Notes under the pieces: generated by a model
Told to the model about the DNA's origin: nothing
What the model saw: only the letters and a program-made list of their open reading frames with translations
The model's database searches: none
Part shown: positions 23,608 to 62,902 of the stretch, in pieces
Layout: each line of letters opens with the position of its first letter
Numbering within the stretch: position 1 is the first letter of the stretch
NCBI RefSeq assembly: GCF_004010195.1
Contig: NC_057718.1
Span: 100,197,578 to 100,261,577 of the forward strand
Direction: 5' to 3'
Length of the DNA stretch: 64,000 nt
Origin: Chiloscyllium plagiosum
Lineage: Eukaryota
Translations under genes and position numbers: made by a program

Positions 23608-24565
23608 TTGTACTTTGTCAACCCTAGTCCAACACCGGCTCCTCCACATCATGACTGTCCAGGTCAACATTCATTCCTCATCCCCAATTGCTCAGAGGAC
23701 CTTTAAGAGTCAACCACATTACTGTGAGGTCTGGAGACACAGGGTAGGTAAGGACAGCAGATTTCCTTCCCTAAAAGACCTTAGTGAAGCGGGATGGGCT
23801 TTTTACAACAATCACCAATAGTTATATGATTGCAGTTGAGTCTTTCATCTTTTAGAATGGGTCACAGGTTTCGGTTCATTAATATGTAAATCCCAGAACT
23901 TCTTTTAAGTCACATTCTCAAGATAAAAGGTCAACCTTTTATATAATTCAAATTTCACCATCTGCCATGGTGGGTTTCAAACCCATGGCCTCCACAACAT
24001 TAGTTCGGGTTTACTGGATCACTGACATGGCCATTATTTTAGATTAGATTACATTACAGTGTGGAAACAGGCCCTTCGGCCCAACATGTCCACACCGACC
24101 CGCCGAAGCGCAACCCACCCATACCCCTAACCTAACACTACGGGCAATTTAGCACGGCCAATTCACCTTGCCTGCACATCTTTGGTCTGTGGGAGGAAAC
24201 CGGAGCAAACCCACGCAGACACGGGGAGAACGTGCAAACTCCACACAGTCAGTCGCCTGAGGCGGGAATTGAACCCGGGTCTCTGGCGCTGTGAGGCAGC
24301 AGTGCTAACCACCGTGCCACCGTCCAGCTCATTCTTGCTCTAAGTATTTTCTTCTTCTGGAAAATGTTACTGATTTTTGTCTTCTGAATCTTCTTAGGTG
24401 ATAACAATAATAAAAAACATTACCAGCTGTCCTGTAATGTCTGCAACTCCCTTCCTGCTGACAGTAGAACACCATTTTCTTATGCCAACATTAAGTAATC
24501 TCAATAAATTATTTCTTCTTTCAAGGTTTTGCCATAAGTCTAGGAAGCCCAAAGAAATCTTCATA

Positions 24566-24795: not shown

Positions 24796-25289
24796 TTTAG
24801 ACTCCCTACAATGTGGAAACAGGCCCTTCGGCCCAACCAGTCCACACCGACCCTCTGAAGAGTAACCCACCCATTTTCCTCTGACTAATGCACCTAACAC
24901 TACGGGCAATTTAGCGTGGCCAATTCACCTAACCTGCACATCTTTGGACTGTGGGAGGAAACCCACACAGACACGGGGAGAATGTGCAAACTCCACACAG
25001 ACAGTCGCCCGAGGCTGGAATCGAACCTGTCCAGGTCAACATTCATTGCTCATCCTCAATTGCCCAGAAGGCAGTTAAGATTCAACCACATTACTGTGAG
25101 GTCTGGAGACACAGGGTAAGTAAGGACAGCAGATTTCCTTCCCTAAAGAACCTTAGTGAAGCAGATAGATTTTTTACAACAATCACCAATAGTTATATGA
25201 TTGCTGTTGAGTCTTTCATCTTTTAGAATGGGTCACAGGTTTCGGTTCATTAATATGCAAATCCCAGAACTTCTTTTAAGTCATCGAAC

Positions 25290-27665: not shown

Positions 27666-29799
27666 CTGAAAGGCACTAAAGAAGTAAGTTTGGGATCTCA
27701 ATATTTGAAGGCCACCAATTCTGAAGGGATTAAAATCTGGGTGTTCATGAGTCAAGAACTGAAAGAGGGCAGAGAGCTTTGTGTCTGCACAGTACAGGAG
27801 GGACAAAGACCATGGGGAGATAATGGGCCTGGAATTGGTGTTAAAGACCCGGGAATTATCAATTATTGAGTTTCAGGCCTCATCAGCCTGGTTCCGATAA
27901 GCTGCCTATGTTAATTTGGCTTCAGGAAGCTCAGTCTGTGAGAAGATGTTCCTCCCTGTCAAAACATATCAAGGAGGCCCACAGGGTGTAGATGGATGTC
28001 AGGGTGGTAGGTGATCAGGAAGGAGAGAGAGGCAGAGGAATTCAGGACTGATAGATGTGGGGAGTCAGGCAAAAACAGTAGTGGGGGTGGGGGGAATAGA
28101 AGGAGAAGTTAGGAGGTGAGCTTACAGGACTCAGGCCTGGTGACCACTTTTTCAGAAAGGAGGCCTCTTAATTGTCGAATTACAGAGCTGCTGGGCTAGT
28201 CCTTGATGCACAGCTGTTGTTCTGCATTCAGGGCAGACCCACTTCAGCAAAGGGGCCTCAAACAGACATTGAAATCCCTTTAGCATAGGCAAGGGGCATG
28301 AAGCCTATTTCAGGTACAGGCGGGTATGTGGACACCAATACTGGGGGCCTTAAGCAACATGCCAAGTAGCACATGTCCACCTTGAAATGCAGTGCATTAA
28401 CCTCCCAAAATATTGGATACCTCTTACACCTGAAAAATGGATACAACTTCAGCATATTTCTATCACATTATATTAATGCATAACAAGGCAGTCATCCAAT
28501 CCGAACCTATGTCACTGTGCGGTGAGTTCTAATAGATTTACTGATGAGTAATGCTGGGGAAATGAAATGTAACTCCAGGCTCAGGAATCCCACCGCCCCC
28601 CCAGCTTCTGCGCAGTTCACTGAAATGCAGCACAGTTCAATGTTTTTCAGATCCATCCTGTACAAAAGTAGCCCTCGCTGACCCCACCTGAAACTTCCCG
28701 AACCCAGACATGTCTCTGTCTTTTATTTTAATAAGATTTGGATTTACAATCAATTTTGTCAGTTTCTTTTTCCTTGGGGCTTGTCTTAATCGGGATCAAA
28801 TCTGAGACTGATCCAACCTCCCAAGCCCACAACGTCTACCATCTGGAAGGACAAGAGCAACAGATCCATGGGAACATAGGTCCCTTCAAGTTCCTCACCA
28901 AGTCACTCACCATCTTGACGTGGAAATATATCCCTGCTCCTTCACTGTCATTGGGTCAAAATCATGGAATTCCCTCCCTCAGGGCATCTTGGGTTCATCT
29001 GCTCCATTGGTTCAAGACAGTAACCCACCATCACCTTCTCAAGGGCACATAATGACAGACAATAAATGCTGGCCCAGTCAGTGATGACCACATCCCATAA
29101 AAGAATTTTTGAGGCAACCCAATTCACATTACAGGATAAGGGGCAAAGAAAATTTTAATGACAGCCATTTGGATGGGAATAATTTCATTTAACAAGTTAA
29201 AAAAAAGTTCTCTGAAGCATCTATCCTGTTGAAGACATATTCCCAAGCAACCTGTTCGGAGATGTTATGACACATAAAAACAGAAATTGCTGGAAAAACT
29301 CAGTAGGTCTGTGGAGAGAAATCAGACTTAACATTTCAGGTCAGTCCTGAGGGTGGACCCGAAATGATAACTCCGATTTCACTCCATGGATGCTACCAGA
29401 ACTGCTGAGTTTTTCCAGCAATTTCTGTTTTTGTTTCTGATTTACAGCATCCGCAGTTCTTTCGGTTTTTATGCTATGACACACCTCTGGAACAGAATGG
29501 GACTTGAACCCTCAGCGCAGTGGCTCAGTGGTTAACACTGCTGCCTCACAGCACCAGGGACCCAGGTTCGACTCCAACCTCAGGTGATTGCCTATGTGGA
29601 GTTTGCAAATTCTCCCTGTGTCTGTGTGGGTCCCTTCGGGGGACAGTAGGTTAGGTGGATTGGTCATGATAAATTGACCAAAGTGTTCAGGGTCATTTAG
29701 GTTAGGTGGATTAGCCATGGGGGTTACAGGGACTAGGTCTGGGTAGGATGTTCTTTGGAGAGTTGGTATGACCTGCCTCCACACTGTAGGGACTATATT

Positions 29800-32053
29800 A
29801 CATTGCTGGATGACTAAAGAAATTGAGGGTTTGGTTAAGAAAAAGAATGTCAGGCACAGACAGGATAGACTGAGTGCATCCTTAGAAGAGTATAAAGAAA
29901 GTAGGAGTATACTTAAGAGGGAAATCAGGAGGGCAAAACAGGAACATGAGATAGCTTTGGCAAATAGAATTAAGGGGAATCCAAAGGGTTTTTACAAATA
30001 TATTAAGGACAAAAGGATAACTAGGGAGAGAATAGGGCCTCTCAAAGATCAGCAAGGCGGCCTTTGTGTGGAGCCACAGAAAATGGGGGAGATACTAAAT
30101 GAATATTTTGCATCAGTATTTACTGTGGAAAAGGATATGGAAGATATAGANNNNNNNNNNNNNNNNNNNNNNNNNNNNNNNNNNNNNNNNNNNNNNNNNN
30201 NNNNNNNNNNNNNNNNNNNNNNNNNNNNNNNNNNNNNNNNNNNNNNNNNNNNNNNNNNNNNNNNNNNNNNNNNNNNNNNNNNNNNNNNNNNNNNNNNNNN
30301 NNNNNNNNNNNNNNNNNNNNNNNNNNNNNNNNNNNNNNNNNNNNNNNNNNNNNNNNNNNNNNNNNNNNNNNNNNNNNNNNNNNNNNNNNNNNNNNNNNNN
30401 NNNNNNNNNNNNNNNNNNNNNNNNNNNNNNNNNNNNNNNNNNNNNNNNNNNNNNNNNNNNNNNNNNNNNNNNNNNNNNNNNNNNNNNNNNNNNNNNNNNN
30501 NNNNNNNNNNNNNNNNNNNNNNNNNNNNNNNNNNNNNNNNNNNNNNNNNNNNNNNNNNNNNNNNNNNNNNNNNNNNNNNNNNNNNNNNNNNNNNNNNNNN
30601 NNNNNNNNNNNNNNNNNNNNNNNNNNNNNNNNNNNNNNNNNNNNNNNNNNNNNNNNNNNNNNNNNNNNNNNNNNNNNNNNNNNNNNNNNNNNNNNNNNNN
30701 NNNNNNNNNNNNNNNNNNNNNNNNNNNNNNNNNNNNNNNNNNNNNNNNNNNNNNNNNNNNNNNNNNNNNNNNNNNNNNNNNNNNNNNNNNNNNNNNNNNN
30801 NNNNNNNNNNNNNNNNNNNNNNNNNNNNNNNNNNNNNNNNNNNNNNNNNNNNNNNNNNNCTAGGAACTCTCCAACCACAAGGGATGAACTCGGGTTTCAC
30901 CAGTTTCCTCATTTCCCCTCCCCCCACCTTGTCTCAGTCAAATCCATCGAATTCAGCACCGCCTTCCTAACCTGCAATCTTCTTCCCGACCTCTCCGCCC
31001 CCACCCCAGTCTGACCTATCACCCTCACCTTGACCTCTTTCCACCTATCACATTTCCGACCACCCCTCCCCCAGTCCCTCCTCCCTACCTTTTATCTTAG
31101 CCTGCTGGACAAACTTTCCTCATTCCTGAAGAAGGGCTTATGCCCGAAACATCGATTCTCCTGTTCCCTGGATGCTGCCTGACCTGCTGCGCTTTTCCAG
31201 CAACACATTTTCAGCACTAATTCGGGATAGTCAACATGGCTTTGTACGTGGGAAATCATGTCTCACAAACTTGATTGAGCTTTTTGAAGAAGTAACAAAG
31301 AAGATTGATGAGGGCAGAGCAGTAGATGTGATCTATATGGACTTCAGTAAGGCGTTCGACAAGGTTCCCCCAAGGGACACTGATTAGCAAGGTTAGATCT
31401 CATGGAATACAGGGAGAACTAGCCATTTGGATACAGAACTGGCTCAAAGGTAGAAGTCAGAGGGTAGATAGGATAGTGAAGAAGGCGTTTGGTATGCTTT
31501 CCTTTATTGGTCAGAGTGCTGAGTATAGGGGTTGGGAGGTCATGTTGCAGCTGTACAGGACATTGGTTAGGCCACTGTTGGAATATTGCGTGCAATTCTG
31601 GTCTCCTTCCTATCGGAAAGATGTTGTGAAACTTGAAAGGGTTCAGAAAAGATTTACAAGGGTGTTGCCAGGGTTGGATGATGTGAGCTACAGGGAGAGG
31701 CTGAACTGGCTGAGGCTGTTTTCCCTGGAGCGTCAGAGGCTGAGGGGTGACCTTATAGAGGTTTACAAAATTATGAGGGTCATGGATAAGATAAATAGAC
31801 AAAGTCTTTTCCCTGGGGCAGCGGGGTCAAGAACTAGAGGGCATAGGTTGAGGGTGAGAGGGGAAAGATATAAAAGATACCTGAGGCATTTGCAACATTT
31901 AAGAGGCATTTGGATGGGTATATGAATAGGAAGGGTTTGGAGAGATATGGGCTGGGTTCTGGCAGGTGGGACTAGATTGGGTTGGGATATCTGGTCGGCA
32001 TGGACGGGTTGGACCGAAGGGTCTGTTTCCATGCTGTACATCTCTATGACTCT
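29800..32053 (+). mobile_element. CR1/HER1 LINE ORF2 (gapped, internally deleted) with a PLE 3' end at 30860-31216
   Basis: NPKGFYKYIKDKR...ILNEYFASVFT; SQHGFVRGKSCLTNLIE..YMDFSKAFDKVP joined directly to KKAFGMLSFIGQ. PLE part: LGTLQPQGMNS plus hammerhead. Confidence 0.85.
30151..30859. other. Assembly gap (others at 6991-6996, 18973-19223, 38078-38289)
   Basis: Runs of N, all within or beside young repeats. Confidence 1.
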
Positions 32054-32169
32054 TTATGAACCCTGGCCTCCTGGCTTAGAGATCAGGACACTGCCACTGC
32101 ACAGTAAGACCCTCTGAATCCTGTTGAACAATTAGTGATAAAATCTGTTCACAAATAAATAAATAAAAC

Positions 32170-33284: not shown

Positions 33285-36200
33285 TGTTATGAAGGTGTAG
33301 AGGTGTACTGTACCTCTAAGAGAGTTGAAAAACTAGTAAGGTCTGCCTGACTCTGCGCAAAGTGTTCTGAACAAGGAAGCAATGTAACATTTGGTCAGTA
33401 GCTGAGTTGCCATGAGACAAAAACAAATTCAAATTCAGCCAATCAGTTTAAATTATACCCAAGATACCAAACTCCAATCAAGTTTGAATTTAGTATTTTC
33501 ATAATATTAAAACCAATGAAATGATCCAATGTTTCGGGCTATAAAACCAGACATTTTTGAAAAGTTGGGAGAGAACTGTCAAAAGACCAACAGATATAGG
33601 CTGTTAGTTTAAGAGGTCTCTGAAAGGTACCTGTCTGGGGATGGCATTTGCACAGCAGAACATTGAGGCCAACCTGAAGAGAATCTACAGAGGAAAATCT
33701 GCAAAGGAGATTTGGCAAAACTGACTGGTTTTTAAATGTGATTTTTTTTTGTAAATCTTAATCGAGATTTCTTATTGGACTAGTGTTGTGGAGTCGAGGG
33801 GGTGAAAGATAGGTTTAAGAAAAAGGAGTCGTAAATAGTTTTTGGTTAATATTCTCTGTTGGACTTAAAGAATAAAAGTTGTCAATTTTTACTTTAAATA
33901 GTGATCTCTGGGATAGCTCTTTGCTTCTCAAATGTTAACAGATTACAGCACAGGGTGCATTTTTTCGGTGTTGCTGGTTTAAATTAGCAGATGGGTTACT
34001 CCATGTCATAACAGTTTGGGGGCCCGGGATTTGGACAGGTTTAGACAGATTTGAATAGGTTTGGGGTACGATAAAGCCAAATAAATTTAAACACTTGCAG
34101 ATTAGCATCCCAGACCCTTAAATAAAATATAGATGAGACAATTTGTTTAATTTCAGTGACTTGTGGTTGATTGAATTAAACATGAGAGAAATGGCTCTTA
34201 AAATTGCTAACAAGGTTCTGGAGTTTGAAGATGATAATCAAATTTTCCAAGAAAGTTTAGAAGGAAAATAAAAAGGCCATACATTTAGAAGTTAGATTTG
34301 GGTTTGACCAAGGACAAAAATAAATTGGAAATTGTAAGGCAGTTACTCACTTAAACGTGTCAGGGAAACAGACAAGTGCAGTAGAGGTAAAAACAATTAA
34401 ATTACAATTGAGGAAAATGGAGTTAGGAGATAAACAAAGAGAGAGAAAAGAAAGAAAAAGAGAGAGAGGAAAATGAGAGAGAGAGAAGGTTCTTAGTTGA
34501 GCAAAGAGCAAGAGAAGAAAGGGAGAGAAAAAGAGAGAGAGAGGAACAAGAAAGAGAGTAAAGGTTCTTAGCTGGGCAAAAAGGTTCTTAGCTGGGCAAA
34601 AAGAGAGAGAACTTGAACTTGAGAAATTGCGACTTAGTCAGCAAAGTCAAGTTAACAGGATGGAGATTAAAAGAGAAGGTAGTGATATATACAAATTTGT
34701 CAAAACTCTGCCACATTTGGATGAGAAAGAATTTGAAGCCTTCTTTATTTCATTTGAAAAATTGGATAGGCAGATGGAGTAGTCCAAGGATTCATGGGTA
34801 ATGCTAGTTTAGTTCAGACTAAACTGGTAGGCAGAGCTAGTGAGGTATTTGCTGTGCTGTCAAATGAGGGGTCAAGAGATTATGAAGAGGTTAAACAGGC
34901 AATTTTAAGTGTTTATGAATTGGTACTAGAAGCATATAGAAATAGTTCAGAAACATAAAGAAGGAACCAGGACAAACTTACGTTGAGTTTGAAAGAATTA
35001 AACATAGTCAATTATTATTGATTGATGTGTGCTTTAGAAATAGAGAGGATCTATGAAGCTCTAAGAGAGATTATTCTGCTGGAGGAGTTTAAAAACTCAC
35101 TTCCAGAGTTGGTAAGAATTCATGTGGAAGAACAAAAAGTTCAGGAGGTGAGAAGGGCAGCAGAATTAGCAGATGAAAACATGTTGGTGTATAAGACAAG
35201 CTTCTGGCCAAAATTTCATCCTGTGAGGGACAGAAGTTGGGAGAAATCCTACACTACAAAACAAAGAGTAAAGAACACTGGTAAGAGGTTAAAAAAGAAG
35301 CCCAAGAGGGTGGAAAGGAGATGAAAGGTCCGGTTTTTCAATTGTAGTAAAGTGGGACAAGTAAAGTCACAGTGCTGGTCGTTAAAGAAAGGCCCTGTAG
35401 GAAAAGATGTGGTAAAAGAAGCTAAGCCAGTGGCATTAGTGAAGGTAGTAAAGGAGACCCCAAGAAGAGCTGAGGAGCTGCAGGAGAGTGTACAGCCGAG
35501 GCAAGGGCTGGGTATGGAGTTAGTACCTGATCTCTACAAAGAATTTGTCTCTGTGGGTAAAGTTTACTCAGAAAGAACAGGGGGAGAGGACAAAAAGTTA
35601 GAATTTTGAGAGATACAGGATCTAACCAATCACTGATAGTATGAGATGAGCGAATTTGCACTCTTTCTGATCTGTTACTTGAGAGTGTGGTAATTTGTGG
35701 GATAGATGGACAGAAATTTAACGTTCTCCTATATAAGATCAGATTGGCGTGCCAGCGCAACTTTGAGGAAGTTACAGTGGGAGTGATTGACAGAGTGTCA
35801 GTTCCTGGAATTCAGTTTGTTCTTGGGAATGATTTAGCAGTATCCAAAGTGGGAGTGACACCCCTTGTTGTGGAGAAGCCCAAGGAACACCAAGAAACTG
35901 TGGAGTTAAAAATATCCTGGTATTTTCCCAGACTGCGTAGTAACCATATCACATTATCATAGACCATAGAAGCAAAAACTAAAGAGAAAGATGTAGGAGT
36001 TGAGGTTCAGTTAGTGGATACCCTGTCTGACATAATGGTGCAGGAAAAACCTGAACAGGCAGAGAGTCAGACAGGAGTGTTTACTCCTGAAAGGCTAAGG
36101 GACTTACAACAGAAAGACAAGATAAATAAAAGCTGTATATGTGGATGCATATTCCGAAAGGGAGGTAGAGGGTAATCCTGAGGGTTATTAGCTGAAAGGC

Positions 36201-37035
36201 AGAATCCTATGACAGAAATGGAGACCATGGCAGTTTAGTGCAGAGGAGAAATGGGCCGAAGTGCACCAGATTGTGTTGCCGGTAGCATAGAGACAGGGGG
36301 TGTTATGGGTAGCACATGAACTACCTGTCGGAGGTCACCTAGGGGTATGAAAGACTCAGGCTAAGGTACAAAAACATTTTTATTGGCCTGGAATGCACAA
36401 GGGTGTGGCTAACTTCTGCCGTATGTGTCTCACATGCCAAATGGTAGGTAAGCCACAGGCAATAGTAAAACCAGCCCCTTTGTTGCCAATTCCTGCATTT
36501 GAAGAACCTTCCACACGGGTTATAATTGATCGTGTGATCGTGTAGGTCCCCTCCTGAGAACTAAAAGTGGGAACCAGTATATATTAACAATAATGGATGG
36601 GTCTACCAGATTTCCGGAGGCAATTCCATTACGGAGTATCAAGGCCAAAAGGTGGTAGAGGAGTTAGTAGCTTTCTTCACACGGTATGGGCTACCCAGAG
36701 AGATTCAGTCAGACCAAAGGTCAAATTTTACTGCTAGGCAGTTTAAGAAGGTTATGGATAGCTTAGGTATACAGCACTTTAAATCCAGTGCCAATCATCC
36801 TGATTCCCAGGGAGCTTTAGAAAGGTGGCATCAGACCTTGGAGACCATGTTGAGAGTATACTGTCAGGACTACCCGAATGACTGGGATAAAGGTATCCCA
36901 TTCGTATTGTTTACAATAGAGATGCCCCAATCGAATTTACTCAGTTTACTCCCTTCGAGTTAATATTCGGGCATGAAGTGAGAGGCCCTTTGAAATTAAT
37001 TAAAGAAAAATTGACAGGACCAAAGTCTGGAAATG
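33285..37035 (+). mobile_element. 3'-truncated Gmr1-like Ty3/Gypsy retrotransposon (5' LTR, PBS, gag-SCAN-CCHC, protease, integrase)
   Basis: LTR tgttatga...tcataaca 33285-34013; PBS tgggggc--ccgggat (tRNA-Pro type); gag ATG 34191; SCAN-like ILLEEFKNSLPELVRIHVEEQK; protease ILRDTGS ~35602; HHCC (AHELPVGGHLG..KHFYWP..CRMCLTC) then integrase core YGLPREIQSDQRSNF with no RT in between. Many stops and frameshifts. Confidence 0.9.
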
Positions 37036-40329: not shown

Positions 40330-41995
40330 CATAGTTTCATGGTAATAGAAGCAGGAGTAGGGCATTTCACCCATCAAGCCTCCTCCGCCATTCATTAAGA
40401 TCATGGCTGATCTATCCATTGTCTCAGCTCCTCCTACCTGCATTATCCCCATAATCCTTAATTCCCTACCATGCAATCAACTATCCAACTGTGTCTTGAA
40501 TATATTTAATGAAGCTGCCTCTACTGCTTCCTTGGGCAGAGAATTCCATAGTTTCACTACTGTCTGGGAAAAGCAGTTCCTCCTCATCTCTGTCCTAAAT
40601 CTACTCCCCCTAATCTTGAGGCCATGTCTCCTAGTCCTGGTATCACCCACCAGCAGAAACAACTTGCCTGCCTCTACCTTATCTATCGCTTTCATACTTT
40701 TAAATGTTTCTATAAAACCTTCTAAATTCTAGTGAGTACAGTCCCAGGCGCCTCAACCTCTCCTCATAGGGTATCCCCGTCATCTCCGGAATCAACCTGG
40801 TGAACCTCCTCTGCATCGCCTCCAAAACCAGTATATCCTTCCTCAAGTAAGGAGACCAGAACTGCGCACAATACTCCAGGTGCGGCCTCACCAACACCTT
40901 GTACAATTGCAGCAGAACCTCCCTGCTCTTCAATTCAATCCCTCTAGCAATGGAAGCCAATATTCTGTTTGTCTTCCTGATTACCTGTTGCACCTGCAAA
41001 TCAACTTTCAGCGATTCATATTCAAGCACTCCTAAGTCCCTCTGCACAACAGCATGCTGCAACCTTTCACTATTTAAATAATACTCTGACCTACTATTTT
41101 TACTTCCAAAGTGGAAAACCTCACATTTCCCAACATTGTACTCCATCTGCCAGGCCCTTGTCCATTGACTTAACTGATCTAAATCTCTCTGCAGACCCTC
41201 CACATCCTCTGTTTACCTTTCTATTCAATTTAGTGCCATCAGCAAACGTGGATACATTATAATTTGTCTCCTCTTCCAAGTCATTTATATATATCATGAA
41301 CACTTGCGAGCCCAACACCAATCCATGCAGCACCCCGCTCACCACTGATCTCCAACCAGAGAAATACCAATTTATCCCAATTCTTTGCTTTTCTATTGGT
41401 TAACCAGTCCTCTGTCCATGCTAGTACATTCCCTGCAACTCCATGCATTCTTATCTTATGAATGAGTCTTTTATGCAGCACCTTATCAAACCCCTTCTGG
41501 AAATCCAAGTATACAACATCCACCTGTTCCCCTTCACCCACCGCACTTGTTACATCCTCAAAGAACTCCAGTAAGTTTGTCAAACATGACCTTCCCTTCC
41601 TGAATCCAGGCTGAGTCTGCCTAATGGAATCCTTTCCATCCAGATGTCTCACTATTTCTCCTTTAATGATAGCCTCCAGTATTTACCCGACTACAGATGT
41701 TAAGCTAACTGGCCTTTAGTTGCCTGCCTTTTGCCTACACCCCGTTTTAAACAGCGGTGTGATATTTGCTGTCTTCCAATCCACTCGGACCTGCCCGGAG
41801 TCCAGTGAATTTTGGTAAATTACCACTAACGCATCCATTATAACTTCCACCATTTCTTTCAGCACCCTGGGATTCTCTCCATCAGGACCAGGGGACTTAT
41901 CTACCTTTAGACTCTCAAGTTTGCTCAACATTACCCCTTTAGTGATAACAATTAAATTGAGGTCCTCACCTCTCATCGTATCATTAACATAATTC
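40330..41995 (-). mobile_element. CR1 LINE RT region and 3' end
   Basis: KSPGPDG..PRVLKE; GFRKGRSCLTNLLEFF..YLDFQKGFDKV; FADGTKL; VRPHLEYCAQFWSP. Confidence 0.9.
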
Positions 41996-43150: not shown

Positions 43151-45080
43151 CTAATTAAATACAGAAACCTCAATCAATCACAGAACCATGGAATGATTCT
43201 TCCAGGTCCAGTCATGTACAGCATGTTAATGAAGCATAGAACACATAGAGCACAGCATAGAATAGCAAATCTGGTAGACAAAGTTTTTATTGTTATAACT
43301 GTTGGCCTAGAGATTTGACAATGGTGTAGAAAAATATTTGGTGAGACCATGGAACTCACAGCATAGGGAGTGGTCTAAGCAAGTGGCACAGATGTAGATG
43401 CCAGGTAGCACAACAAACTTTGAGAGACAAAGCAATAAAAGGTTACAATGATAGGTTTAGAGAAAGATAGATGGTAGGAAACCTTGATAGGAGTTTGAAC
43501 TCCGGCAGTGACTGGAGAGGCTGAATGGCCTGTTTCTGTGCTCTATACGCATGTAGTCTGAATTTAGAGATATAGGAATCTATCTAAGTCAGAAGAAGTG
43601 TCCACTCTTGAAAAAAGAGTTGGCACACTGTAAAACTGTATCTATTTGGGGCATCTTTCATCACATTGGATTGCTCTCCTCTCTTCTGATTGCTTATCTC
43701 CATCTCTTGCCCCTTTTTCTCCTCACCTCTACACCAATCCCTTACATACTGCCCTTCCAATTCTAATGCATCTGATAGGAAGGGTAGACCCGCCTCGGAG
43801 GGAGGGTACAGTAAGTTTACTAGAATGATAACAAGATACCCTAAGAGTTAAATTACAAGCAGAAACGACACAAACTAAGGTTATATTTCTTCATCGGTTT
43901 GATTAAAGTTTTCACGATATTAAGGGAAACAGATAGTGTGTTATTCCAGTGAGTCATGACTCCTGGTTACCTAATTGTACCTGGATACTGGACCATCTGG
44001 ATTCCAATTTCAATGTTTAATGAGACTAGGACTAAGGGCCAGAGTCTAAAAATGAAAGCCAGATCTTTCCAAAACAAAATTAGGAAATGTTTCTATGTTT
44101 AAAAGATGGTGAATATTTTGAATGCCTCTGCAAATGGCAATTTATTCTACATGAATTGTTAATTTCAAATTTGGGATGAATCAGTTTGTGTTAACCAAAG
44201 GTATTAAAAGATGGAGTTCATTAGCAGCTACGTGCAACTCAATCATAATCATAAAGGGCGGCACGATGGCACTATGGGTGGCACAGTGGTTGGCAATGCT
44301 GCCTCACAGCGCCAGAGACCCGGGTTCAATTCCCGCCTCAGGCGACTGACTGTGTGGAGTTTGCACATTCTCCCTGTGTCTGCGTGGGTTTCCTCCGGGT
44401 GCTCCAGTTTCCTCCCACAGTCTAAAAACGTGCAGGTTCGGTGAATTGGCCATGCTAAATTGTCCGTAGTGTTAGGCGAAGGGGTAAATGTAGGGGAATG
44501 GGTGTAGGGGGGTTGCGCTTTGGCGGATCGGTGTGGACTTGTTGGGCTGAAGGGCCTGTTTCCACACTGTAAGTAATCTAATCTAATCTAATCTAATCAT
44601 TGAAGGACAGAACAGGCTTTAGGGGTTGAATGGCCTCCTCCAATTCCAACGGAACACCAGTGAGGGCCCCAGCGATGTCATGCATCTTATTGGTCTGAAG
44701 TAAATGAAGATCTACAGTTTTCTCATTTATATTAAGAAGGACTTTAATGTTAACTATTACCTTATTTCTTTATTTTTCGACTTATTCTGTAAAGGTCTGT
44801 AATGCTTAAGTTACTAACTTTGTACCTTTTACTACTTTGTACCTGAGTGTTTTTGTACCTAGATATGTTTGTACTTATGTTAGTGCCTTGTGTGGTGGCA
44901 CTGTACACTTTTCACTGTACTCTTGTACTTGAGTACAAGTGACAATAAAATCTAAATCTATTTTTTTCTTAAAAGGGCGAGATGGTATTGTTGCGATAAT
45001 GCCACTGGGCTAATGAATCCAGGGCTGAAAATGTGTTGCTGGAAAAGCGCAGCAGGTCAGGCAGCATCCAGGGAACAGGA

Positions 45081-45117
45081 GAATCGACGTTTCGGGCATA
45101 AGCCCTTCTTCAGGAAT
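45081..45117 (-). ncRNA. Minimal type I hammerhead ribozyme motif (PLE)
   Basis: attc-CTGAAGA-agggc-ttat-gccc-GAAA-cg-TC-gatt. Confidence 0.75.
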
Positions 45118-45829
45118 GGGGAAAGTGTGTCCAGCAGGCTAAGATAAAAGGTAGGGAGGAGGGACTTGGGGGAGGGGCGTCGGAAATGCCCTCGACTTGA
45201 TTTAAATTAGACATTTTCAAGTTCTGAGTGACAGGATTAAAATGCATTTTCTAATGTCTGGTTGCAGCCTGGTAAAAAAAAATGTAATGGGCCAAACTTT
45301 ACTGTAAATGACAACTGAATACCACCTGCCAAGAGTCAGACTTCTTTTTCCTATTTAATCTCCAGAATACTTTGCACATTAAATTGCTTTGGCTGGGAGG
45401 CGGAAACAGCACAGATCCTTTAGCTGAGTATCTGTGTGAACAGGGCAAGTAACTCTGTTTCTCCTTATCCAATGAGATTTAATGAATATAACCTGTAGAG
45501 TTGTGTGTGGTAGTGGGTAATATCGCTAATCATGGAACTTCTCAGAAACCCCGGGTTCACGTCCCACTTCAGGAGATGACAACCACACAAAAAAAAAGAG
45601 TTCAAAGCATGTCAACCAGATTGCTTATGAGCCAGTAAATACTTCTGATATGCTTGATGGTCAGTAGTTAGAGCAGGCCTGGTCCTGTTTCTTGATCAGC
45701 CATCCTGCAAAAAGCAATAACAAACCATTGCAGTACTTTGCCAAGTCCATCATTGCCAATGTCCACTTAGTGTTTGGTACCTGAACAGAGACAGAGAAAA
45801 AGACTCTGCACCAGACGTGTGAGAACATT

Positions 45830-48320
45830 GAAACAGAAGCAGCAGCAGATCCTACATCTCGTCGAGTCTACTCAAAAACTCAGTACAATCAAAGGAACAA
45901 AATAAGTTATTCAGCGTGTCGAACACACCCCACTATTCAATATGATTATGGCTAATCGAATACTTTAACGTCTTTTAACTAGGCCATTCCCATAATGCTT
46001 TATGTCACTGGTGACCAGAAAGCTAACAATCTCTGCCTTGAACATATTCAACAACTGAGCTTCCCCAGCAGTCTGTGGTAGAGAATCTCAATGATTCACA
46101 ACACTTTGAGCGAAAAAAAACTCCTCATCTTGAACCTTGGAGGCATCCCTCTTATTTTTAAATTGTGCCCCCGGTTCTAGAGGGGAAACATCTTACCTGC
46201 ATCCACCGTACCTGTCCCCTGTCATATTTTGTAAGTTTCAATGAGATGACCTTTCATTCTTCGAAACTCTAGACAGTACAGGCCCAGTTGTCCAATCTCT
46301 CTTCACAGAACTATCATCCCAGAAGCAAGTTTGGTGAACATTCACTGCACTCCCTCTATGGTAATAATATCTTTCCCAAGATATGAAATCAAAATTGCAC
46401 ACAATATTCCAGGTTTGGTCTCACCAAGCTCCTATAATTAAAGCAAGATTTCACTAGTCCTGTACTGAAATCCTCTTGCAATAAAGGCAAACATTCCATT
46501 CGTCTTCCTAATAGCTTGCTGCATCTGCATGTTAGCCTTCAAAAACTTATTGTACATCAGCTGTTTCCAACTCTCACTATTTAAGAAATACTCTGTAAAT
46601 CTGTTTCTCCTACCAAATGGCCTCACATATTTCCACATTACATTCCTTCTGCCGTGTTCTTGCCCATTCACTAAGCCAGTCCCAAAACCGCTTTATGTTT
46701 TCCTCACAATACACGTTCCCACTTAGCTTTGCATCATCTGTAAATTTGTAAATGTTGCTTTTGATATACATTGTAAACATCTGGGGTCCCAAATACTGAA
46801 CCTTGCAGTATCCCACTTGTCACAGATTGCCAATGTGAGGAAGATCTTTTTATTTCTACACTCTGTTTCCTGATCATTTGCTAATCATTAATCCATGTCA
46901 TTACATTACCTCCTTTCTGATGTGCTTTAATTTGTCGAACCAGTATCCTGTGGAGGACTTTACCAAAAGCTGTCTGAGAATCTAAGTGTACTGCATCACT
47001 GGCTCTCTTAATCAATTTTGTTGGTAAAATCATCAAACATCCTCACCAACGTCATCAAACACTATTTCCCATTCACAAATCCATGTTGACAATGTGCAAT
47101 GCAGCTGAGTTGGAGATGGTCAAGAGCATCAAGTACCTTGGAGTGACAGTCATTAGCAATCTGTCCTGGAGTACCCACGTCAAAAAGACACAACAACGTT
47201 GCTTCTTTCTCAGAAATCTAAGGAAATTCAGCATGTCTGTCAGGACTCTCATCAACTTCTAAAGATGCACCATAGAAAGCACTCTATGTAGATGCATCAT
47301 GGCCTGGTATGGCAACTGCTCTGCCCTGGACTGTAAGAAACTACAGCAAGCTCCGGACAGAGCTTTGTCCATCACACAAGCCAACCTTCCATCCGCTGCC
47401 TCCATCTACATTTCTCAATGCCTCAGAAAGGCTGCCAACACTAAAGAATCCTCCTACCCAGTTATAATCTTTTCCAAACTCATTTGTCAGGCAGAAGATA
47501 CAAAAGCTTAAATGCACATACCAACATGTTCAAGAACAGCTTCTTCCCTGTTGTTATTAGACTTCTGAATGCACCTCTCAAATTTCAAATGTAATGTTGA
47601 TGTTGCTTTTGTGAACCTACTTTGCAGCGGAAACTTTCTATTCCTTGCTCTATCCACTCATGCTACGATCTTTGTATGTTATGATCTGCCTGCAATATCA
47701 GGTGCAGTAGGCTTTGGGTTAGCATGGTGGCTTAGTGGTTAGCACTGCTGCCTCACAGCACCAGGGACCCAAGCTTGATTCCAGCCTTAAGTGACTGTCT
47801 AATTGGAGCTTGCTCATTCTTCCCATATCTGCGTGGGTTTCCTCCGGATACTCTGATTTCCTCCCACAGTCCAAAGATGTGTAGATTAGGTGGATTACCT
47901 ATGCTAAATGGCCCATAGTGTTCAGTAATGTGCAGGCTGGGTGGATTAGCCATGGGATGTGCAGAGTTACAGAGATAGGGTCTGGATGGGCTGAAGGGCC
48001 TACTTCCACACTGTAGGAATTCTGTGATACTATATTGCATGCATAACAAAGCGTTTCACTGTACCTAGGTACATCTCAACAATAAATCAAGTCAATCAGA
48101 TCATTATTAACCAGAAGTCTATTTATTCACTCCTTGATAATAGATTCTAGCATTTGCAATGGAGTCACATTTGCTAACTTCCAGTCTTCAGGAATCATTC
48201 CAGAATCTATGGAATTTTGCAAGATAATCATCAATGCATTGACTATCTCTATAGTGATATCCTTCAAAACTCTGGGATGTAGTCCATCAGGATTTATCAA
48301 CTTTCAGCTCCATTACTTAC
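45830..48320 (-). mobile_element. Old CR1 LINE fragment with a nested Rex/Babar piece (47085-48100, +) and HE1 SINE
   Basis: AIRKTNGMFAFIARGFQYR; KFTDDAKL; Rex-type AWYGNCSALDCKKLQ. Confidence 0.75.
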
Positions 48321-48690
48321 AGTTATAGAGTCATAGTGATGTACAGCATGGAAACAGACCCTTCGGTCCAATCCGTCCATGCTGACCAGATATCCCAACC
48401 CAATCTAGTCCCACCTGCCAGCACCCGGCCCATATCCATACTTCTTCCAGTACAATCAAAGAATTATCAAATCCCTACAGTGTGAAAACAGGCTATTTGG
48501 CCCATCGAATCTACACTGACCTTCTGAAGAGTTTCCCACCCAATCCCACCCCTCCATCCTATCCCTGTAACCTGCATTTCCCATGGCTAATCCACCTAAC
48601 CTGCACATCCACAGGGGCGGATTTCTGACGCCCCTCCCCCAAGTCCCTCCTCCCTACCTTTTATCTTAGCCTGCTGGACAAACTTTCCTC

Positions 48691-48727
48691 ATTCCTGAAG
48701 AAGGGCTTATGCCCGAAACGTCGATTC
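48691..48727 (+). ncRNA. Minimal type I hammerhead ribozyme motif (PLE)
   Basis: attc-CTGAAGA-agggc-ttat-gccc-GAAA-cg-TC-gatt; near-identical copy at 31122-31158 (one stem III change). Confidence 0.75.
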
Positions 48728-49653
48728 TCCTGTTCCTTGGATGCTGCCTGACCTGCTGCGCTTTTCCAGCAACACATTTTCAGCTCTGATCTCCAGCATC
48801 TGGAGACCTCACTTTTTCCCTAATGAATCCAGGGGCCCAGGCTAACGTCGATTTTGCCTGTCCTCGGATGCTGCCTGAATTGCTGTGCTCTTCCAGCACC
48901 ACTGATCCAGAATAATGCTCTTAAGACACAGGTCCAATTTCCCCAGAACAACTGTTGGGATTAATACATTTGGAATCTGGAAGCCAGTATCAGTAATGGT
49001 GACATCTATTGCTGCTGTTAAAAAAAATCCATCTGGTTCAAGATGGTTAAGGAAGCAAATCTGCTGTCCTTACCTGGTCTGGCCTACAGGTGTCTCTTGA
49101 CTCACAGCAATGTGGTGACTCTTAACAGCTCTCTGAAATGACTATCAAGTAATTCAGTTCTAGGACAACTAGAGATGGGCAATCCAATACAGAATTTTTA
49201 AAAATCAGTTGTGATCAAAGCCTACTCAGTCCAACCTTCCTATCAGTCACAGGGTGTCAGTTGGCTAGATGGTGGATTTGTAATGCAAAGTGATGTGTCC
49301 AGGGTGGATTCAATTCCCATGCTGGCTGAGATTACTCTGATGGACTCCCCTTCTCAACGTTTCCCCTCACCTGAGGTGTGGTGATCATAAGGTTAAACCA
49401 CCACCAGTAGTCTCTCTCTCGCTAATGAGAGAGCAGCCCTCTAGGACTATGTGATTTTACTATCTGCCATTATCCTGTTAAAATAATTCCAGCTGACCTT
49501 GACATGAAACTTTGCTGGGGCCAGCCTTGACTCACTGTAGATTCATTCATAAACTGAAACATTACAATAATATAATTTGTGGCTCACAATGGGTCGAATG
49601 CCGTTTTTATTTGTTTTGTAACAGTTCTTCAATCCTGTAAGTCATATCCTAAC

Positions 49654-50573: not shown

Positions 50574-51159
50574 CTGGAAAACAGCAAATGTCTGTCAGGA
50601 CAGATAGTAACAATCAACATAAATATGTGGACTATCTGTCCCAACAGTGAACGTCATGAGAAGCAGATTATTTGGTTGTTACACTTTCTTAACCACATTA
50701 TAATCTTGGAGGAATAGATGTGTGAAGTTGACACAACCTAGCAGAAAAAAAACCGCATGGAGCCAAGCAGCAAGTTCTCATGAATTTGACTTCCTGTTTA
50801 TGTATTTTATCCTGGACATTGTTATTCAGCCTGTCTCTGTCCCTCAGCCCCTATCTTTCTACAGTTTCTGTTTCCTTTGTTTTGTACTCTTAGCAAATAA
50901 TGTAGAAAGCAGAGGTCCCTGCTCCTGAATATGCACGTACATTTCTGCAAAAATTAGGCCTTGACTTTATCTGTCTCTTATCATGCCTTTCTCTCTCTTT
51001 CACACTGTACCCATCTCTGATTGTGTCACTAGTTTCATATTGCAGTCTGTTCATTGGGAGAGTGAACTGAGCTTTGTGATCTCCAGCCTGATTTTCTTTG
51101 CATAATAACCAACTGCCCATCAACCCATGGCTTTGTAACTCAACACCAGGTAGAACAAG

Positions 51160-51347
51160 AGCACAGCAATTCAGGCAGCATCCGAGGACAGGCAAAATCG
51201 ACGTTTCGGGCAAAAGCCCTTCATCAGGATTCATGCTTTTGCCCGAAACGTCGATTTTGCCTGTCCTCGGATGCTGCCTGAATTGCTGTGCTCTTCCAGC
51301 ACCACTGATCCAGAATCTGGTTTCCAGCATCTGCAGTCATTGTTTTT
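51160..51347. mobile_element. PLE hairpin inserted in pseudo-exon D
   Basis: Inverted arms meet at the hammerhead; perfect 15-bp TSD accaggtagaacaag (51145-51159, 51348-51362). Confidence 0.9.
51196..51231 (-). ncRNA. Minimal type I hammerhead ribozyme motif (PLE), best-paired copy
   Basis: AATC-CTGATGA-agggc-tttt-gccc-GAAA-cg-TC-GATT: perfect 4-bp stem I, 4-bp stem II, palindromic ACGT stem III. Confidence 0.8.
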
Positions 51348-54300
51348 ACCAGGTAGAACAAGCAAGGCCATTAACAGAGCAGCACATTTATTGACCTCAG
51401 GGAATGGGATGCAGTGGGCAAGATTCAAACCAAAGACAAGGCAGTCTTAATGCAGGGTCCCTTTGCTGCACAGAAAAGCCATGCTTGCTCATAACTGAGG
51501 ATGAGAGGGGCCACTTTAGTCACCCTGGAACCTTTGCAAGGGTGACACACTGGCACCCACAGTAGACTCATCAGGAGAAGTGCAAGTGAGTTTGCAGGCA
51601 TGCAATCTCATCCTAGCAACCCAGCGATACTCTCCAAGGTCTCTGTGCCTCCTCCAATTCTGGGCTCTTGAACAGCCCCAACTTCTATCAGTCCGAGATT
51701 GGTGGCCATGCCTTCAGCTGCCCAAACCTCTACACAGTATTATTCCCTCCCTAAACTGTTGCTAAAGACAGTTAGTACCGGAAAGGGTTAGCTGACACCT
51801 CGCGATAAGGTCTGGCCACGAGAATATAAAAGACTGTTCCTGGGAGGAGCTAATCAGTTCTAATGTTTCAGTTTCTGTCTCTAAGTTGTTGTTTTAGTGT
51901 TAAATCCACACAGCTAACAGTCATGTGAAACAAACACAAGAAGATGCTGAAGAATCTCAGCAGGTCTGGCAGCATCTGCAGAGAAAGAGACAGAGTTAAC
52001 TTTTCGAGTCTGGCATGACTCTTCTTCAGAACTATGTTCCCAAACACCTCAAAGGAAGAAAAGACGTTTCTTGTTAAAGTTTCGAAAGAGACACAGAATG
52101 AAGTGGAGTGGAAGAAGCTGAAAGATTAAAATGGAAACCCCATCAGAGAGGAGCAAAACTTGTTCAAGGTGGGCTTACCTGGAAGAGAAGTGGCAGTGAA
52201 TTAAACACTCAAATAAAAGCAAAATACTGCTGGAAATCTGAAACAAACAAACAGAAAGTGCTGAAGAAACTCAGCAGGTCTGGCAGCATCTGTGGAATGA
52301 GAAACGGAGTTAATCTTTTGAGTTCAGTGACTTCTTCAGAACTCCTCAGAACAGTAATATGAACTTACTGTTAAGGTGGGACCAATGTCTCACAGAAGTC
52401 TTTCGCAATCTTATCTGTAATGTAGCTAGCTATTAAGTACTATGCAATAAACAGTTACTATTTATCAATAGGGAGCCTACTTCTGCCAAAGACTTTGTGT
52501 GGACGTCTTTCCTTACTTGATAACTTAGACCAATACCAATAAGACAGATCACTGATTGTAAATCTACTCAAAGCATCCTAGCTGGTTCAGGTGGACACAT
52601 CGTTTTATTATAAACTTCTATACCTCTCTTTCTCCATAAAGAAGTACCTTAACACCTACGTTTTTGACCAAGCTTTTGGTAACCTATCTTAGTATCTCCT
52701 GATGCAGCTCGATATCAAATATTGTGAGATATTGTGAGATGTACAGACGCAACCTGCTCATCTTTTCCTCATACATTTCCTCATCCCAGGCACCAGTGTC
52801 TTTGCTGAACTGTGTCCAATGCACATAAATCCCAATGTAAAAATACCTTGGGTGTACTAGTTTTACAGGGTGGAAAGAACCTACATCCTGGCCATTGTCT
52901 GTAAGAAAGACACGACTTCATTTTTAAACATGGTCTATCAGCTCCCCCACAACATGAAACAGCAAGTGAATGAGGGATTGGCTAGTCTCTCTTTCTGGCT
53001 GTGTACTGTCTTCTTTGTTTCTCTTTTACTCATCTGTACTTTTCCATCTCTCTTTCTCCCTTTCTATCTCTCATACAAACGTATCAACAAGAAGCAGACA
53101 TAGGCCACTCAGCCTCTTGAGCCTTCTCCACCAATTGTGATTTCTCCAGATTCCTGCCATCTCCTGTAGCTCTTACCTGGGAGGGATGTTGCAAAACTGG
53201 AAACAGTCAGCCTTCAATCATGGAGTTGTTATTGTGGTGAATATGCTACTGGCTTAGTAATTGAGAGGCTTGGAATGATTATTTGGGGTTCAAATCGCAC
53301 AACAGCAACTGTGGAATTTTAATAATTTTTTTCTGAAAGACATGAGCATCAGTACTGTAAAGTATGAAAAGACTGGATTGTTGTAAAATCTATTTCATTA
53401 AAGTTCTTTAGGAAGGAAATCTGCCACCCTTACCCAGTCTGGCCTACATGTGACTCCAGACCCACAGTTGTGGTCAGGAATGTGACTCCCTACTACATTC
53501 TCAAGGGCAGCTAGGGTTGGACAATAAATGTTGGCCTTCCTGATATAGAGAATAATAAAACAATAAAAATAGACCATTACATAATAAGGTTATCAGGACA
53601 GATGGTTAATGAATATCTTAAAGAATGTCTTGCGGGAAATGTTGATATTTATGGAGGGAATTTGGAGTTTTGGACCCAGGCAGCTGAAGGCATCGCTATC
53701 CCAATGGTGAAACAATTTAAATCAGGGATTCTCAAGAATTCAGAAATTAGAGGAATGTAGAGGTCTTGGAGAGTTGTGGGACTTGAGGTGATTACGGAGG
53801 TAGTGAAGGGGCAAAGCCATGTAGGAATTTGAAGTCATGGATGATCATTTTAAAGTTGAGGTGCTTCTTAACCAGAAGCTAACGTAGATCGTGGGTAGGG
53901 TAACTAGATGCCCTGGGGCTTTACTGGGATAGTCACAGTTTTTAATTAAATATCCTGGTGTGCCAACAATTTCCTAAAAGGAGTTCAGATACCCTGGTTA
54001 TTTCACCTCCTGTGTCAAAACAAAAATAGCTTAGGGAAAGAAGTCAGTGTGAAATGTCATCCTCCTCCCTGGAAACACCTATCACTTTACAATCACCGCA
54101 ACCCCCAACCATACCAGGCACCTCTGTGGGAGTTGTCTCCACCTTTTTGGTGTCAATGACTCCATTGCTGATGAGTGCTTTTTAAACAATTGACAGAGAA
54201 AGGTCACTAACTCTGGCTGGGCTTATGGATGGAGTTGTCATCACATGTGTATTCAACTGCTCCTCGCCGAGGCTCCTGCCATTGGTCACCCAACATGTCA

Positions 54301-61344: not shown

Positions 61345-62902
61345 AAATGCTGTCACCTGCTCTGACAGTCTCGTGTGAAACAGTGCCCACGGTCAACATC
61401 ACAGACATCAGAGCAGCCTTCTTAAGGGTGAACCCACAGAAAGTGACTGGCCGGATGGAGACCCCGGTTGTGCTCTCAGATCCTGTGTGGACCAGCTGGT
61501 GAGACTATCCAAACATCTTTAACCGCTCCTTACACCAACCTGAAGTTCCCACTTTCTTCAAGACCAGTGCAAAAAAAAGGTGAGGCAGTGTGCCTTAATG
61601 ACTACAGCCCGGTGACTCTAAGATCCATCATTATGAAATGTTTTGAGAGTTTAGTCATGGCACATATCAAACTCCAGCCTTCCAGATTGCCTCGATCCAC
61701 TACAATTCACCTACCATCACAAGTCCATGGCAGACACCATCCCCCTGGCCCTACACTCATTCTTGGAACATCTGGATAACAAAGGCACATACATCAGACT
61801 CCTATGAATTGACTATAGCCCTGCCTTCGACACTATAATTTCAACAAAACTCATCTTCAATTGTTGAGTCTTAGGACTCTCCTCCTTACTTTGCAACTGG
61901 ATCCTCGACTTCTTGACCCACAGAGCACAATTAGTAAGGATAGGCGACAACCCCTCCTCCACAATAGTCCCTAACATTGATGCCCTGCAAGGCTGCATAT
62001 TCAACCCCTTACTATGCTCCTTATACACTCATGATTGTGTGGCCAAATTCTGCTCTATTCCATTTACAAGTTTGCTGATGACCACTGTAATGCTTTGGGC
62101 CTTAAACAATAACAAGACAGAGTACAGGAAAGAGATAGAGAGCTTACTGGCATGATGTAAAGACCACAATCTTTCCCTCAATGTCAGCAAAATGAATGAG
62201 CTGATCATCGACTTCAGGAAGCAGAGTGGAGGACATGCCCCTGTCTGTATCAAAGGTGCTGAGGCAGAGATGGTCAAGAGCTTCAAATTCATAGGAGTAA
62301 AGATCATCAAACATCTGTCCTGGTCCATCCACATTGATGATACGGTTAGGAAAGCACACCAATGCCTTTATTTCCTCAAAAGGTGAAGAAAATTCAGCAT
62401 GCCCAAAATGATTTATCAATTGTTATAGATGCAACATAGAAAGTGTCCTATCCAGGTGCATCACTGCTTGGTATGGCAACTGCTCTGTCCAAGATCAGAA
62501 GAAATTGCAGAGCATTGTGAACACAGCCTAGTCCACTACGTAAACCAGCCTTCCATCCACTAACTCCGCTTACAATTCCCATTGGAAAGCAGCCAACATA
62601 ATCAAAGACCCCTCCCTCCCAGTTATACTCTCGTCAATCAGGCAGAAGATTTTAAAAAAGTTTGAAAACACAAAACAACAGATTCAAGAACAGCTGCTTT
62701 CCTGCTGTTATCAGACTTATGAACGGACATCTCATACACTAAAGTTGACCTTTCTCTGCACTCTCTCTGTAGCTGTAACACTTCATGTTGCATTCTGTTC
62801 TATTATCCTGATGTATTTATAGATAATATGATTTGCCTGGATAGCATACAAAACAACTTTTCACTGTATCTCAGTACATGTGACCATAATAAAACCAAAT
62901 CA
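61345..62902 (+). mobile_element. Rex/Babar-type LINE RT fragment
   Basis: [65 protein letters not shown]. Confidence 0.85.

What the first reader, a model, noticed from the sequence alone, without database searches (positions are those of the whole stretch)
45010..48834. Composite-transposon-like unit: inverted hammerhead-bearing PLE arms enclosing 3.4 kb of old genomic DNA
Seen: two 163-bp inverted arms differ at only 4 positions and are truncated within 1 nt of the same point. Only the right arm has the ~35-nt tail. A perfect 15-bp TSD lies in direct orientation, and one SINE B copy is split across the two flanks, which points to a single insertion site. The interior is a heavily decayed mosaic (CR1, Rex, SINEs) that looks much older than the arms, and its right end cuts through an HE1 SINE. 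Inference: genomic DNA was captured during PLE integration (template jump) or during repair of a broken hairpin. This would be a PLE-driven route to segmental duplication.
Basis: partly seen in the sequence, partly recalled or inferred. Interest (0 to 1): 0.72.

Follow-up and report, generated by a model that had tools for sequence, protein, structure and literature searches.

The report
Host DNA trapped inside Penelope fold-back
A jumping-gene insertion of the Penelope type has 3.4 kb of older, unrelated genomic DNA wedged exactly between its two mirror-image halves, probably picked up while the insertion was being sealed; such capture is known in other animals, and where this DNA came from is still unknown.

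Summary
The anatomy is real. A tail-less inverted arm (45025-45187) and a tailed arm (48621-48819) of one hammerhead-bearing Penelope-like family share a unique 15-bp target duplication. They split one SINE, whose halves rejoin colinearly with three other copies. The 3,433-bp interior is therefore foreign to this site.

New here: both arms stop at the same base, and each inner junction starts with a short inverted copy of the same arm motif (right 7 nt, null 0.15-0.27%; left 5 nt, null 2.4-3.3%; statistic chosen after seeing it). Best reading (0.5): two target-primed cDNAs ran to the same RNA end, each folded back briefly, and a genomic fragment then bridged them.

Not shown: no donor lies in the window, no genome is held, and no reads were laid. 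Duplication, copy number, the empty site and the assembly are all untested, and nothing shows the unit moving as a composite transposon. Host-DNA capture by Penelope ends is published for a rotifer (up to 4 kb). This scan already noted 143-236-bp captures and a roughly 0.9-kb case elsewhere in this genome; this is the largest of those I was shown.

The parts
44979..45024 (+).
   Evidence: colinear with 3 other copies across the empty site
45010..45024 (+). left target-site duplication, 15 bp
   Evidence: 15/15 with 48820-48834, only two occurrences in the window
45025..45187 (-). inverted, tail-less pLTR arm, 163 nt
45086..45113 (-). minimal hammerhead motif in the left arm
   Evidence: core, unpaired base, 4-bp stem II and palindromic end matched by pattern; not found by Rfam
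45189..45193 (+). left snap-back-like scar, inverted copy of 45172-45176
   Evidence: 5 nt; null 2.4-3.3%; weak
45188..48620 (.). captured interior (cargo), 3,433 nt
   Evidence: lies between the arms; no second copy in the window
45883..47104 (-). decayed LINE reverse-transcriptase region (CR1-like, label recalled)
   Evidence: tblastx mostly 30-60% to in-window LINE pieces, including the RVT_1-positive 41284-41682
47104..47600 (+). decayed LINE 3' end with ALKBH8_N domain (Rex1/Babar-like, label recalled)
   Evidence: Pfam PF09004 E 5.7e-08; 68% to 62258-62734
47726..48023 (+). HE1-like SINE inside the cargo
   Evidence: 82% to 8748-8944
48321..48437 (.). young LINE 3'-end piece inside the cargo, with an imperfect duplication of about 9 bp at its ends
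   Evidence: 94.7% to 31944-32056; flanks printed
48476..48608 (-). HE1-like SINE lacking its 5' half, ending 4 nt from the right scar
   Evidence: starts at reference position 165 against 13-60 for 6 other copies
48613..48619 (+). right snap-back-like scar, perfect inverted copy of 48629-48635
   Evidence: 7 nt; null 0.15-0.27%; 7-bp DNA hairpin of -7.8 kcal/mol
48621..48783 (+). sense pLTR arm, 163 nt
48695..48722 (+). minimal hammerhead motif in the right arm
48784..48819 (+). one-sided 36-nt tail
   Evidence: aligns with the tail of the sibling at 23431
48820..48834 (+). right target-site duplication, 15 bp
48835..49190 (+). 3' part of the target SINE, interrupted at 48844-48913 by a 70-nt stub of a second Penelope-like family

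Best explanation
One Penelope-like (PLE) insertion whose centre was closed through a third piece of DNA. Steps: (1) The element's endonuclease cut both strands 15 bp apart inside a SINE [TSD and split SINE shown; enzyme inferred]. (2) Each target 3' end primed reverse transcription of the element's pLTR RNA, the right one at the outer start (arm with tail) and the left one at the inner start (arm without tail) [orientation shown; two-strand extension and two starts are published in vitro for an anole PLE, not tested here]. (3) Both cDNAs stopped at the same base, most simply the RNA's 5' end [same stop shown; cause inferred]. (4) Two 3' ends of identical sequence cannot anneal to each other, so each folded back and copied 5-7 nt of its own GC-rich end [scars shown, right strong and left weak; mechanism inferred]. 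Normally this makes a complement that joins the two arms into a lopsided palindrome. (5) Here both ends were instead joined to, or copied across, a 3.4-kb genomic fragment from more than 15 kb away, whose right break falls inside a SINE [inferred; donor not found]. The result is a dead, one-off insertion carrying old repeat-rich DNA, with no gene found in it.
For: TSD 15/15 and unique; three sibling insertions in the window have 13-15-bp TSDs. The SINE rejoins across the empty site. Both arms read as cDNA extended from the target's two 3' ends, and the target's last 5 nt match the RNA at the tail boundary 4/5. PMC11167929 (main text read): the anole PLE protein cuts and extends both strands, starts at two sites that bound the tail, and is predicted to be a dimer. 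The scars on both sides point at the same arm motif. The two ordinary fold-backs in the window have lopsided centres (about 13 nt at 23.5 kb; a 5-nt filler repeating nearby arm sequence at 51.2 kb), whereas here neither arm is trimmed. At arm position 117 the left arm shares C with the copy at 31052, while the right arm and 9 of the 10 other copies examined have T (chance about 5-7%), a weak hint of two template RNAs. Genomic templated inserts at retrotransposition junctions are reported for LINE-1 (PMC11702581, passages).
Against: No donor, empty allele or junction-spanning read was seen. The snap-back statistic was defined after looking at the junctions. The left scar is only 5 nt and needs a one-base slip to match the right one. 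The stop point is 74 nt upstream of the hammerhead core and 102 nt upstream of its cut site, and no other in-window copy starts there, so a fixed RNA 5' end is assumed. Earlier notes on this genome (unchecked) report donors within 1-1.3 kb, whereas none lies within 45 kb to the left or 15 kb to the right here (1,178 N in 4 gaps aside). The comparison with ordinary centres rests on n = 2.
Confidence: 0.5

Rival explanations
1. RNA transduction / non-autonomous element: a PLE stub at a donor locus was transcribed with 3.4 kb of upstream DNA and mobilised in trans. The right junction, scar included, was inherited from the donor, and the unit may be multi-copy.
For: Trans-mobilisation of host DNA by pLTRs is published (PMC3846280). 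The young LINE piece in the cargo shows it has aged as a block.
Against: The left cDNA would have to stop within 1 nt of the arm/cargo border, and its next bases differ from the right junction by about 3 changes in 8 nt, against 2.5% arm divergence. There is no direct 5' pLTR as in the rotifer NRPS case. Two look-ups of cargo sequence among earlier notes found 0 look-alikes; these are not a genome search.
Confidence: 0.14
2. Later repair: a perfect 163-bp palindrome formed first, broke at its centre, both ends snapped back, and the break was patched with a templated genomic insert.
For: It predicts two identical free ends and two scars, as seen. Snap-back synthesis at breaks is documented (PMC5728401, passages). 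That long perfect palindromes are fragile is established knowledge, recalled.
Against: It needs an original centre with no loop, while both ordinary centres in the window are lopsided (n = 2). Neither arm lost a base at the break.
Confidence: 0.12
3. Single-strand template jump: one cDNA copied the right arm, folded back 7 nt, jumped to genomic DNA or pre-mRNA for 3.4 kb, then returned to itself to make the left arm.
For: The cargo's first bases share a 4-nt inverted match with the right filler, which could guide the return to the same point. Self-priming is the model proposed in PMC3846280.
Against: The return would have to skip 2 nt of the filler. The left arm begins exactly at the tail boundary, which is an RT start site in vitro (PMC11167929). 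The arms differ at a site that varies in the family (weak).
Confidence: 0.12
4. Misassembly: an ordinary fold-back was joined to unrelated DNA by the assembler.
For: The window has 4 N gaps, at least one inside a repeat, so the assembly is not gap-free. No read check was obtained.
Against: There is no N in the unit. It needs two gap-free misjoins at the same element base, each with junction bases that copy the arm, and with TSD and SINE halves left in the right order.
Confidence: 0.07
5. Resident DNA: the interior was always here and two separate PLE stubs landed at its ends.
For: The family is common in the window: 19 BLAST pieces to the right arm, itself included.
Against: One SINE is split exactly at the duplicated 15-mer, only one arm has a tail, and both arms stop at the same base.
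Confidence: 0.03

Closest known systems
[quoted passage not shown] 2013, PMC3846280, parts 1-4 of 5 read; size of 4 kb from PMC6431247, passages)
   Same: kb-sized host DNA framed by pLTRs, the whole unit bounded by a TSD; the paper also mentions non-coding sequences captured between solo pLTRs with TSDs
   Different: There the NRPS gene lies between two direct pLTRs with an extra inverted one, and an empty allele was shown. Here the cargo sits at the centre between the inverted arms, there is no direct 5' pLTR, no gene was found, and no empty allele was seen.
Standard EN+ PLE insertion with inverted 5'-truncated copy, one-sided 30-40-bp tail and minimal hammerhead (PMC8557442 and PMC4209133, passages; PMC11167929, main text)
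   Same: inverted arm, one-sided 36-nt tail, TSD, minimal hammerhead motif
   Different: The arms are normally adjacent; here they are 3,433 nt apart, untrimmed to the same base, each followed by a snap-back-like scar. No RT/GIY-YIG ORF could be tied to this family here.
Templated genomic insertions at LINE-1 retrotransposition junctions (PMC11702581, passages)
   Same: genomic DNA inserted between the reverse-transcribed end and the other end while an insertion is sealed
   Different: LINE-1 in cultured human cells, with templates reported near the integration site in the three insertions described; here both ends carry element cDNA and no donor is nearby.
Snap-back synthesis-dependent MMEJ (PMC5728401, passages)
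   Same: a few inserted bases form an inverted repeat with sequence just inside the end
   Different: described for small repair junctions in Drosophila; the polymerase here (PLE RT or a host enzyme) is unknown
Earlier notes of this scan in the same genome (e1-7789820, e1-7789279, e1-7858368; unchecked)
   Same: foreign DNA exactly where the two inverted PLE arms meet
   Different: 143-236 bp with identified, mostly local sources; this one is about 15-24 times longer and has no source in the window

Membership tests
EN+ Penelope-like element insertion | minimal hammerhead motif in the pLTR | tested here: met
   core, unpaired base before stem II, G-C first pair, 4-bp stem II and palindromic end in both arms (against the PMC4209133 description). 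Rfam found nothing, the MFE fold is unremarkable (z 0.08), and cleavage is untested.
EN+ Penelope-like element insertion | inverted 5'-truncated copy framing the unit | tested here: met
   arms 97.5% alike over 163 nt
EN+ Penelope-like element insertion | 30-40-nt tail on one side only | tested here: met
   48784-48819, 36 nt
EN+ Penelope-like element insertion | target-site duplication | tested here: met
   15/15; siblings 13-15 bp
EN+ Penelope-like element insertion | family encodes RT plus GIY-YIG endonuclease | tested here: inconclusive
   the only candidate ORF end (30860-30967, 36 aa, cut by a gap) gave 0 PDB hits, 1 chance-like hit and one 0.76 Atlas lead; the clade cannot be assigned
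pLTR-mediated trans-mobilised host DNA (Adineta NRPS type) | cargo between two direct pLTRs | tested here: not met
   only two arms, in inverted orientation
pLTR-mediated trans-mobilised host DNA (Adineta NRPS type) | empty allele with one copy of the TSD | not tested
   reconstructed in silico only; no reads or relatives were aligned
Segmental duplication | second genomic copy, 1 kb or more at 90% identity or more (definition recalled) | not testable with these tools
   none in the window; no genome held
Composite transposon | the whole unit moves again by its two end elements (several copies with different TSDs) | not testable with these tools
   single copy in the window; the arms are non-coding stubs
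Snap-back (SD-MMEJ-like) junction | junction bases form an inverted repeat with sequence just inside the end | tested here: met
   right 7 nt (null 0.15-0.27%), left 5 nt (null 2.4-3.3%), post hoc statistic

The most novel reading that the evidence does not exclude
Vertebrate PLEs insert by twin target-primed reverse transcription from two RNA molecules with a fixed (possibly capped) 5' end. This leaves two non-complementary cDNA ends that must be closed by snap-back end joining. That gap routinely traps distant genomic DNA of kb size, so PLE fold-backs are a recurrent generator of dispersed duplications in shark genomes, and captures like this one freeze both cDNA ends for inspection. The extra G at 48620 before a CA start and the shared derived base at arm position 117 are the weak hints for a capped start and for two templates.
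Probability: 0.2. Interest if true: 0.72.

Novelty: new variant of a known kind. Interest (0 to 1): 0.42.

Why it matters
How PLEs build their inverted arm and finish an insertion is unresolved; the 2024 in vitro paper leaves the later steps open (PMC11167929). A capture keeps the two arm ends apart and untrimmed, so it records what ordinary fold-backs erase: where each cDNA stopped and what it did next. A genome-wide set of such loci would test twin priming against self-priming directly, and would show how much kb-scale host DNA PLEs move in a vertebrate. This single locus carries no identified gene and has no evident function.

Tried and rejected
No whole genome is held, so no donor or copy-number search was possible.

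One search listed 24 public runs, 18 holding part of 44600-49600 (organism A up to 0.73 of the words, B 0.16-0.31, C 0.22-0.26). None was laid on the locus, so these shares are not used as evidence; junctions, empty site and donor remain unchecked by reads.

Rfam: 0 hits at gathering score in the window and 5 chance-level hits around the unit, none a hammerhead. An exact 37-nt family pattern gave 0 matches in viral, prokaryote-genome and metagenome contigs, so no further family copies were obtained.

Donor in the window: none by BLASTN or by shared 16-30-mers outside known repeats; 1 of 8 gap flanks matched the cargo, and only through a LINE piece at 85.5%.

An exon-like stretch at 45366-45446 (pyrimidine tract, open frame; 1 of 26 candidate rows) found no homologue and was dropped as a captured exon. 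No host gene was recognised among 116 stop-free frames of 90 aa or more (read by eye). Pfam on the six frames of the cargo gave only ALKBH8_N and one sub-threshold hit. Pfam on 5 LINE-like frames gave hits in 2. Attempts to identify the family's ORF end failed.

A 6-nt direct repeat after the left scar was judged chance by a rough estimate made without a call. Look-ups among earlier notes by place near, by cargo sequence, by relatives and by two word sets were empty.

Literature searches (related topics in 28, 29, 37, 55, 56) listed no paper on kb-scale DNA at the centre of inverted PLE arms in a vertebrate. The library lacks most subscription papers and I read no supplements; those of PMC11167929 and PMC3846280 could hold such cases.

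Full report
1. Observation. The unit runs 45010-48834. A 15-bp direct repeat (45010-45024, 48820-48834) is perfect, cannot be extended and occurs only twice in the window. Inside it lie two inverted 163-nt arms with 4 differences, 3,433 nt apart. Only the right arm continues into a 36-nt tail, which aligns with the tail of a sibling insertion at 23431. A longer family copy at 31052 runs on upstream of the point where both arms stop, so both arms are 5'-truncated, at the same base; the left arm may have one more element base. The flanks are two halves of one SINE. After removing the unit, one TSD copy and a 70-nt stub of a second family at 48844-48913, the sequence aligns colinearly through the site with 3 of 5 candidate copies tested. 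The interior is therefore not resident between these flanks.

2. What the arms are. Each carries a minimal hammerhead motif as described for metazoan PLEs (PMC4209133, passages). Rfam does not detect it and the free fold is not special. Inverted arm, one-sided tail and TSD are the standard PLE insertion form (PMC8557442, passages; PMC3846280). Three siblings in the window have 13-15-bp TSDs. I could not tie the family to an RT/GIY-YIG ORF, so PLE identity rests on architecture. That the host is a shark comes from earlier notes of this scan and was not tested.

3. The cargo. About 700 nt have no relative in the window. Then follow a decayed LINE RT region, a second LINE end with an ALKBH8_N domain, a SINE at 82% to its best in-window relative, one young LINE 3' piece (94.7%) with an imperfect duplication of about 9 bp, and a SINE fragment. 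Half of the cargo has in-window relatives and 3.3% of it at 90% or more, whereas the arms are about 95-96% identical to their siblings. The last SINE starts at reference position 165, against 13-60 for six other copies, and ends 4 nt from the junction scar, so the right break does fall inside it. No second copy of the cargo is in the window, and an exon-like stretch found no homologue.

4. The junctions. On the right, 48613-48619 is a perfect inverted copy of 48629-48635, forming a 7-bp hairpin; a match this long arises at 0.27% of 125,352 window positions and 0.15% of 6,800 cargo positions. On the left, 45189-45193 is an inverted copy of 45172-45176, the same arm motif; null 3.3% and 2.4%. 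I chose this statistic after seeing the junctions, so the figures are optimistic and the left scar alone is weak. Such short inverted fillers are the signature of snap-back synthesis at a free 3' end (PMC5728401, passages). The two ordinary fold-backs in the window have lopsided centres, in which one arm is shorter; here neither arm is trimmed.

5. Mechanism. Both arms read as cDNA extended from the two 3' ends of the cut target, and the target's last 5 nt match the RNA at the tail boundary 4/5. The anole PLE protein cuts and extends both strands, starts at two sites that bound the tail and is predicted to be a dimer (PMC11167929, main text). Two such cDNAs have the same sequence and cannot anneal; snap-back by one of them would create the complement and give the usual lopsided palindrome. 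I infer that here both snapped back and were then bridged by a genomic fragment (0.5). Rivals: transduction from a donor stub or a multi-copy non-autonomous element (0.14), later breakage and repair of a perfect palindrome (0.12), one strand jumping out and back (0.12), misassembly (0.07), resident DNA (0.03). Two weak hints go further. The left arm shares a derived base at position 117 with the copy at 31052, while the right arm and 9 of 10 other copies have the other base (chance about 5-7%). An extra G precedes the right arm, as at capped full-length LINE-1 5' junctions (PMC11702581, passage), but one base has a 1-in-4 chance and no other in-window copy starts there.

6. What is not shown. 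No genome is held and no reads were laid, so donor, copy number, empty allele and assembly are unchecked. 'Segmental duplication' and 'composite transposon' are therefore unproven. Donors reported in earlier notes on this genome were about 1 kb away; none is within 45 kb to the left or 15 kb to the right here, apart from 1,178 N in 4 gaps.

7. Known and new. Capture of host DNA by PLE ends, up to a 4-kb gene, is published for Adineta vaga (PMC3846280; PMC6431247, passages), there between direct pLTRs and with an empty allele shown. Templated genomic inserts at LINE-1 junctions are also reported (PMC11702581, passages). This scan had already noted smaller captures at PLE fold-back centres in this genome (unchecked). 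My searches listed no paper on kb-scale cargo between inverted PLE arms in a vertebrate, or on paired snap-back scars; supplements and subscription papers were not seen. Verdict: a real, well-bounded fossil of a known kind of event in a variant geometry, useful mainly as a mechanistic record. Interest 0.42.

Noticed in passing
window 48844-48913: A 70-nt tail-less stub of a second PLE family sits in the same SINE 9 nt after the TSD, 100% identical to 51247-51316 and with no clear TSD of its own; two PLE hits within 25 nt.
   Followed up: partly
window 51145-51362: Fold-back of the second family with a 14-15-bp TSD; its centre has a 5-nt filler that repeats arm sequence 5 nt upstream, like a templated end-joining insert, and its tail-less arm stops short of the usual tail boundary.
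   Followed up: partly
window 23416-23621: Plain fold-back of the same family as the finding, TSD 14/15, centre lopsided by about 13 nt, with the short arm starting next to the hammerhead cut site.
   Followed up: partly
window 29747-31925: A longer, tail-less copy of the family (30860-31215, cut by a 709-N gap) lies inside a LINE RT reading frame; its first 36 codons may be the end of the PLE ORF but found no homologue.
   Followed up: partly
window 45366-45446: Exon-like stretch in the unique part of the cargo (pyrimidine tract, acceptor, open frame of 27 codons, donor-like site); no protein match, could be non-coding.
   Followed up: partly
window 48321-48437: Young LINE 3' piece inserted into the old LINE within the cargo, with an imperfect duplication of about 9 bp; a marker for dating the capture once the donor is found.
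   Followed up: partly
window 34500-37000: Frames resembling gag, protease and integrase of a decayed LTR retrotransposon (read by eye, labels recalled).
   Followed up: no
window 23655-23912 and 25027-25283: A 258-nt direct repeat at 93% identity, 1.4 kb apart.
   Followed up: no
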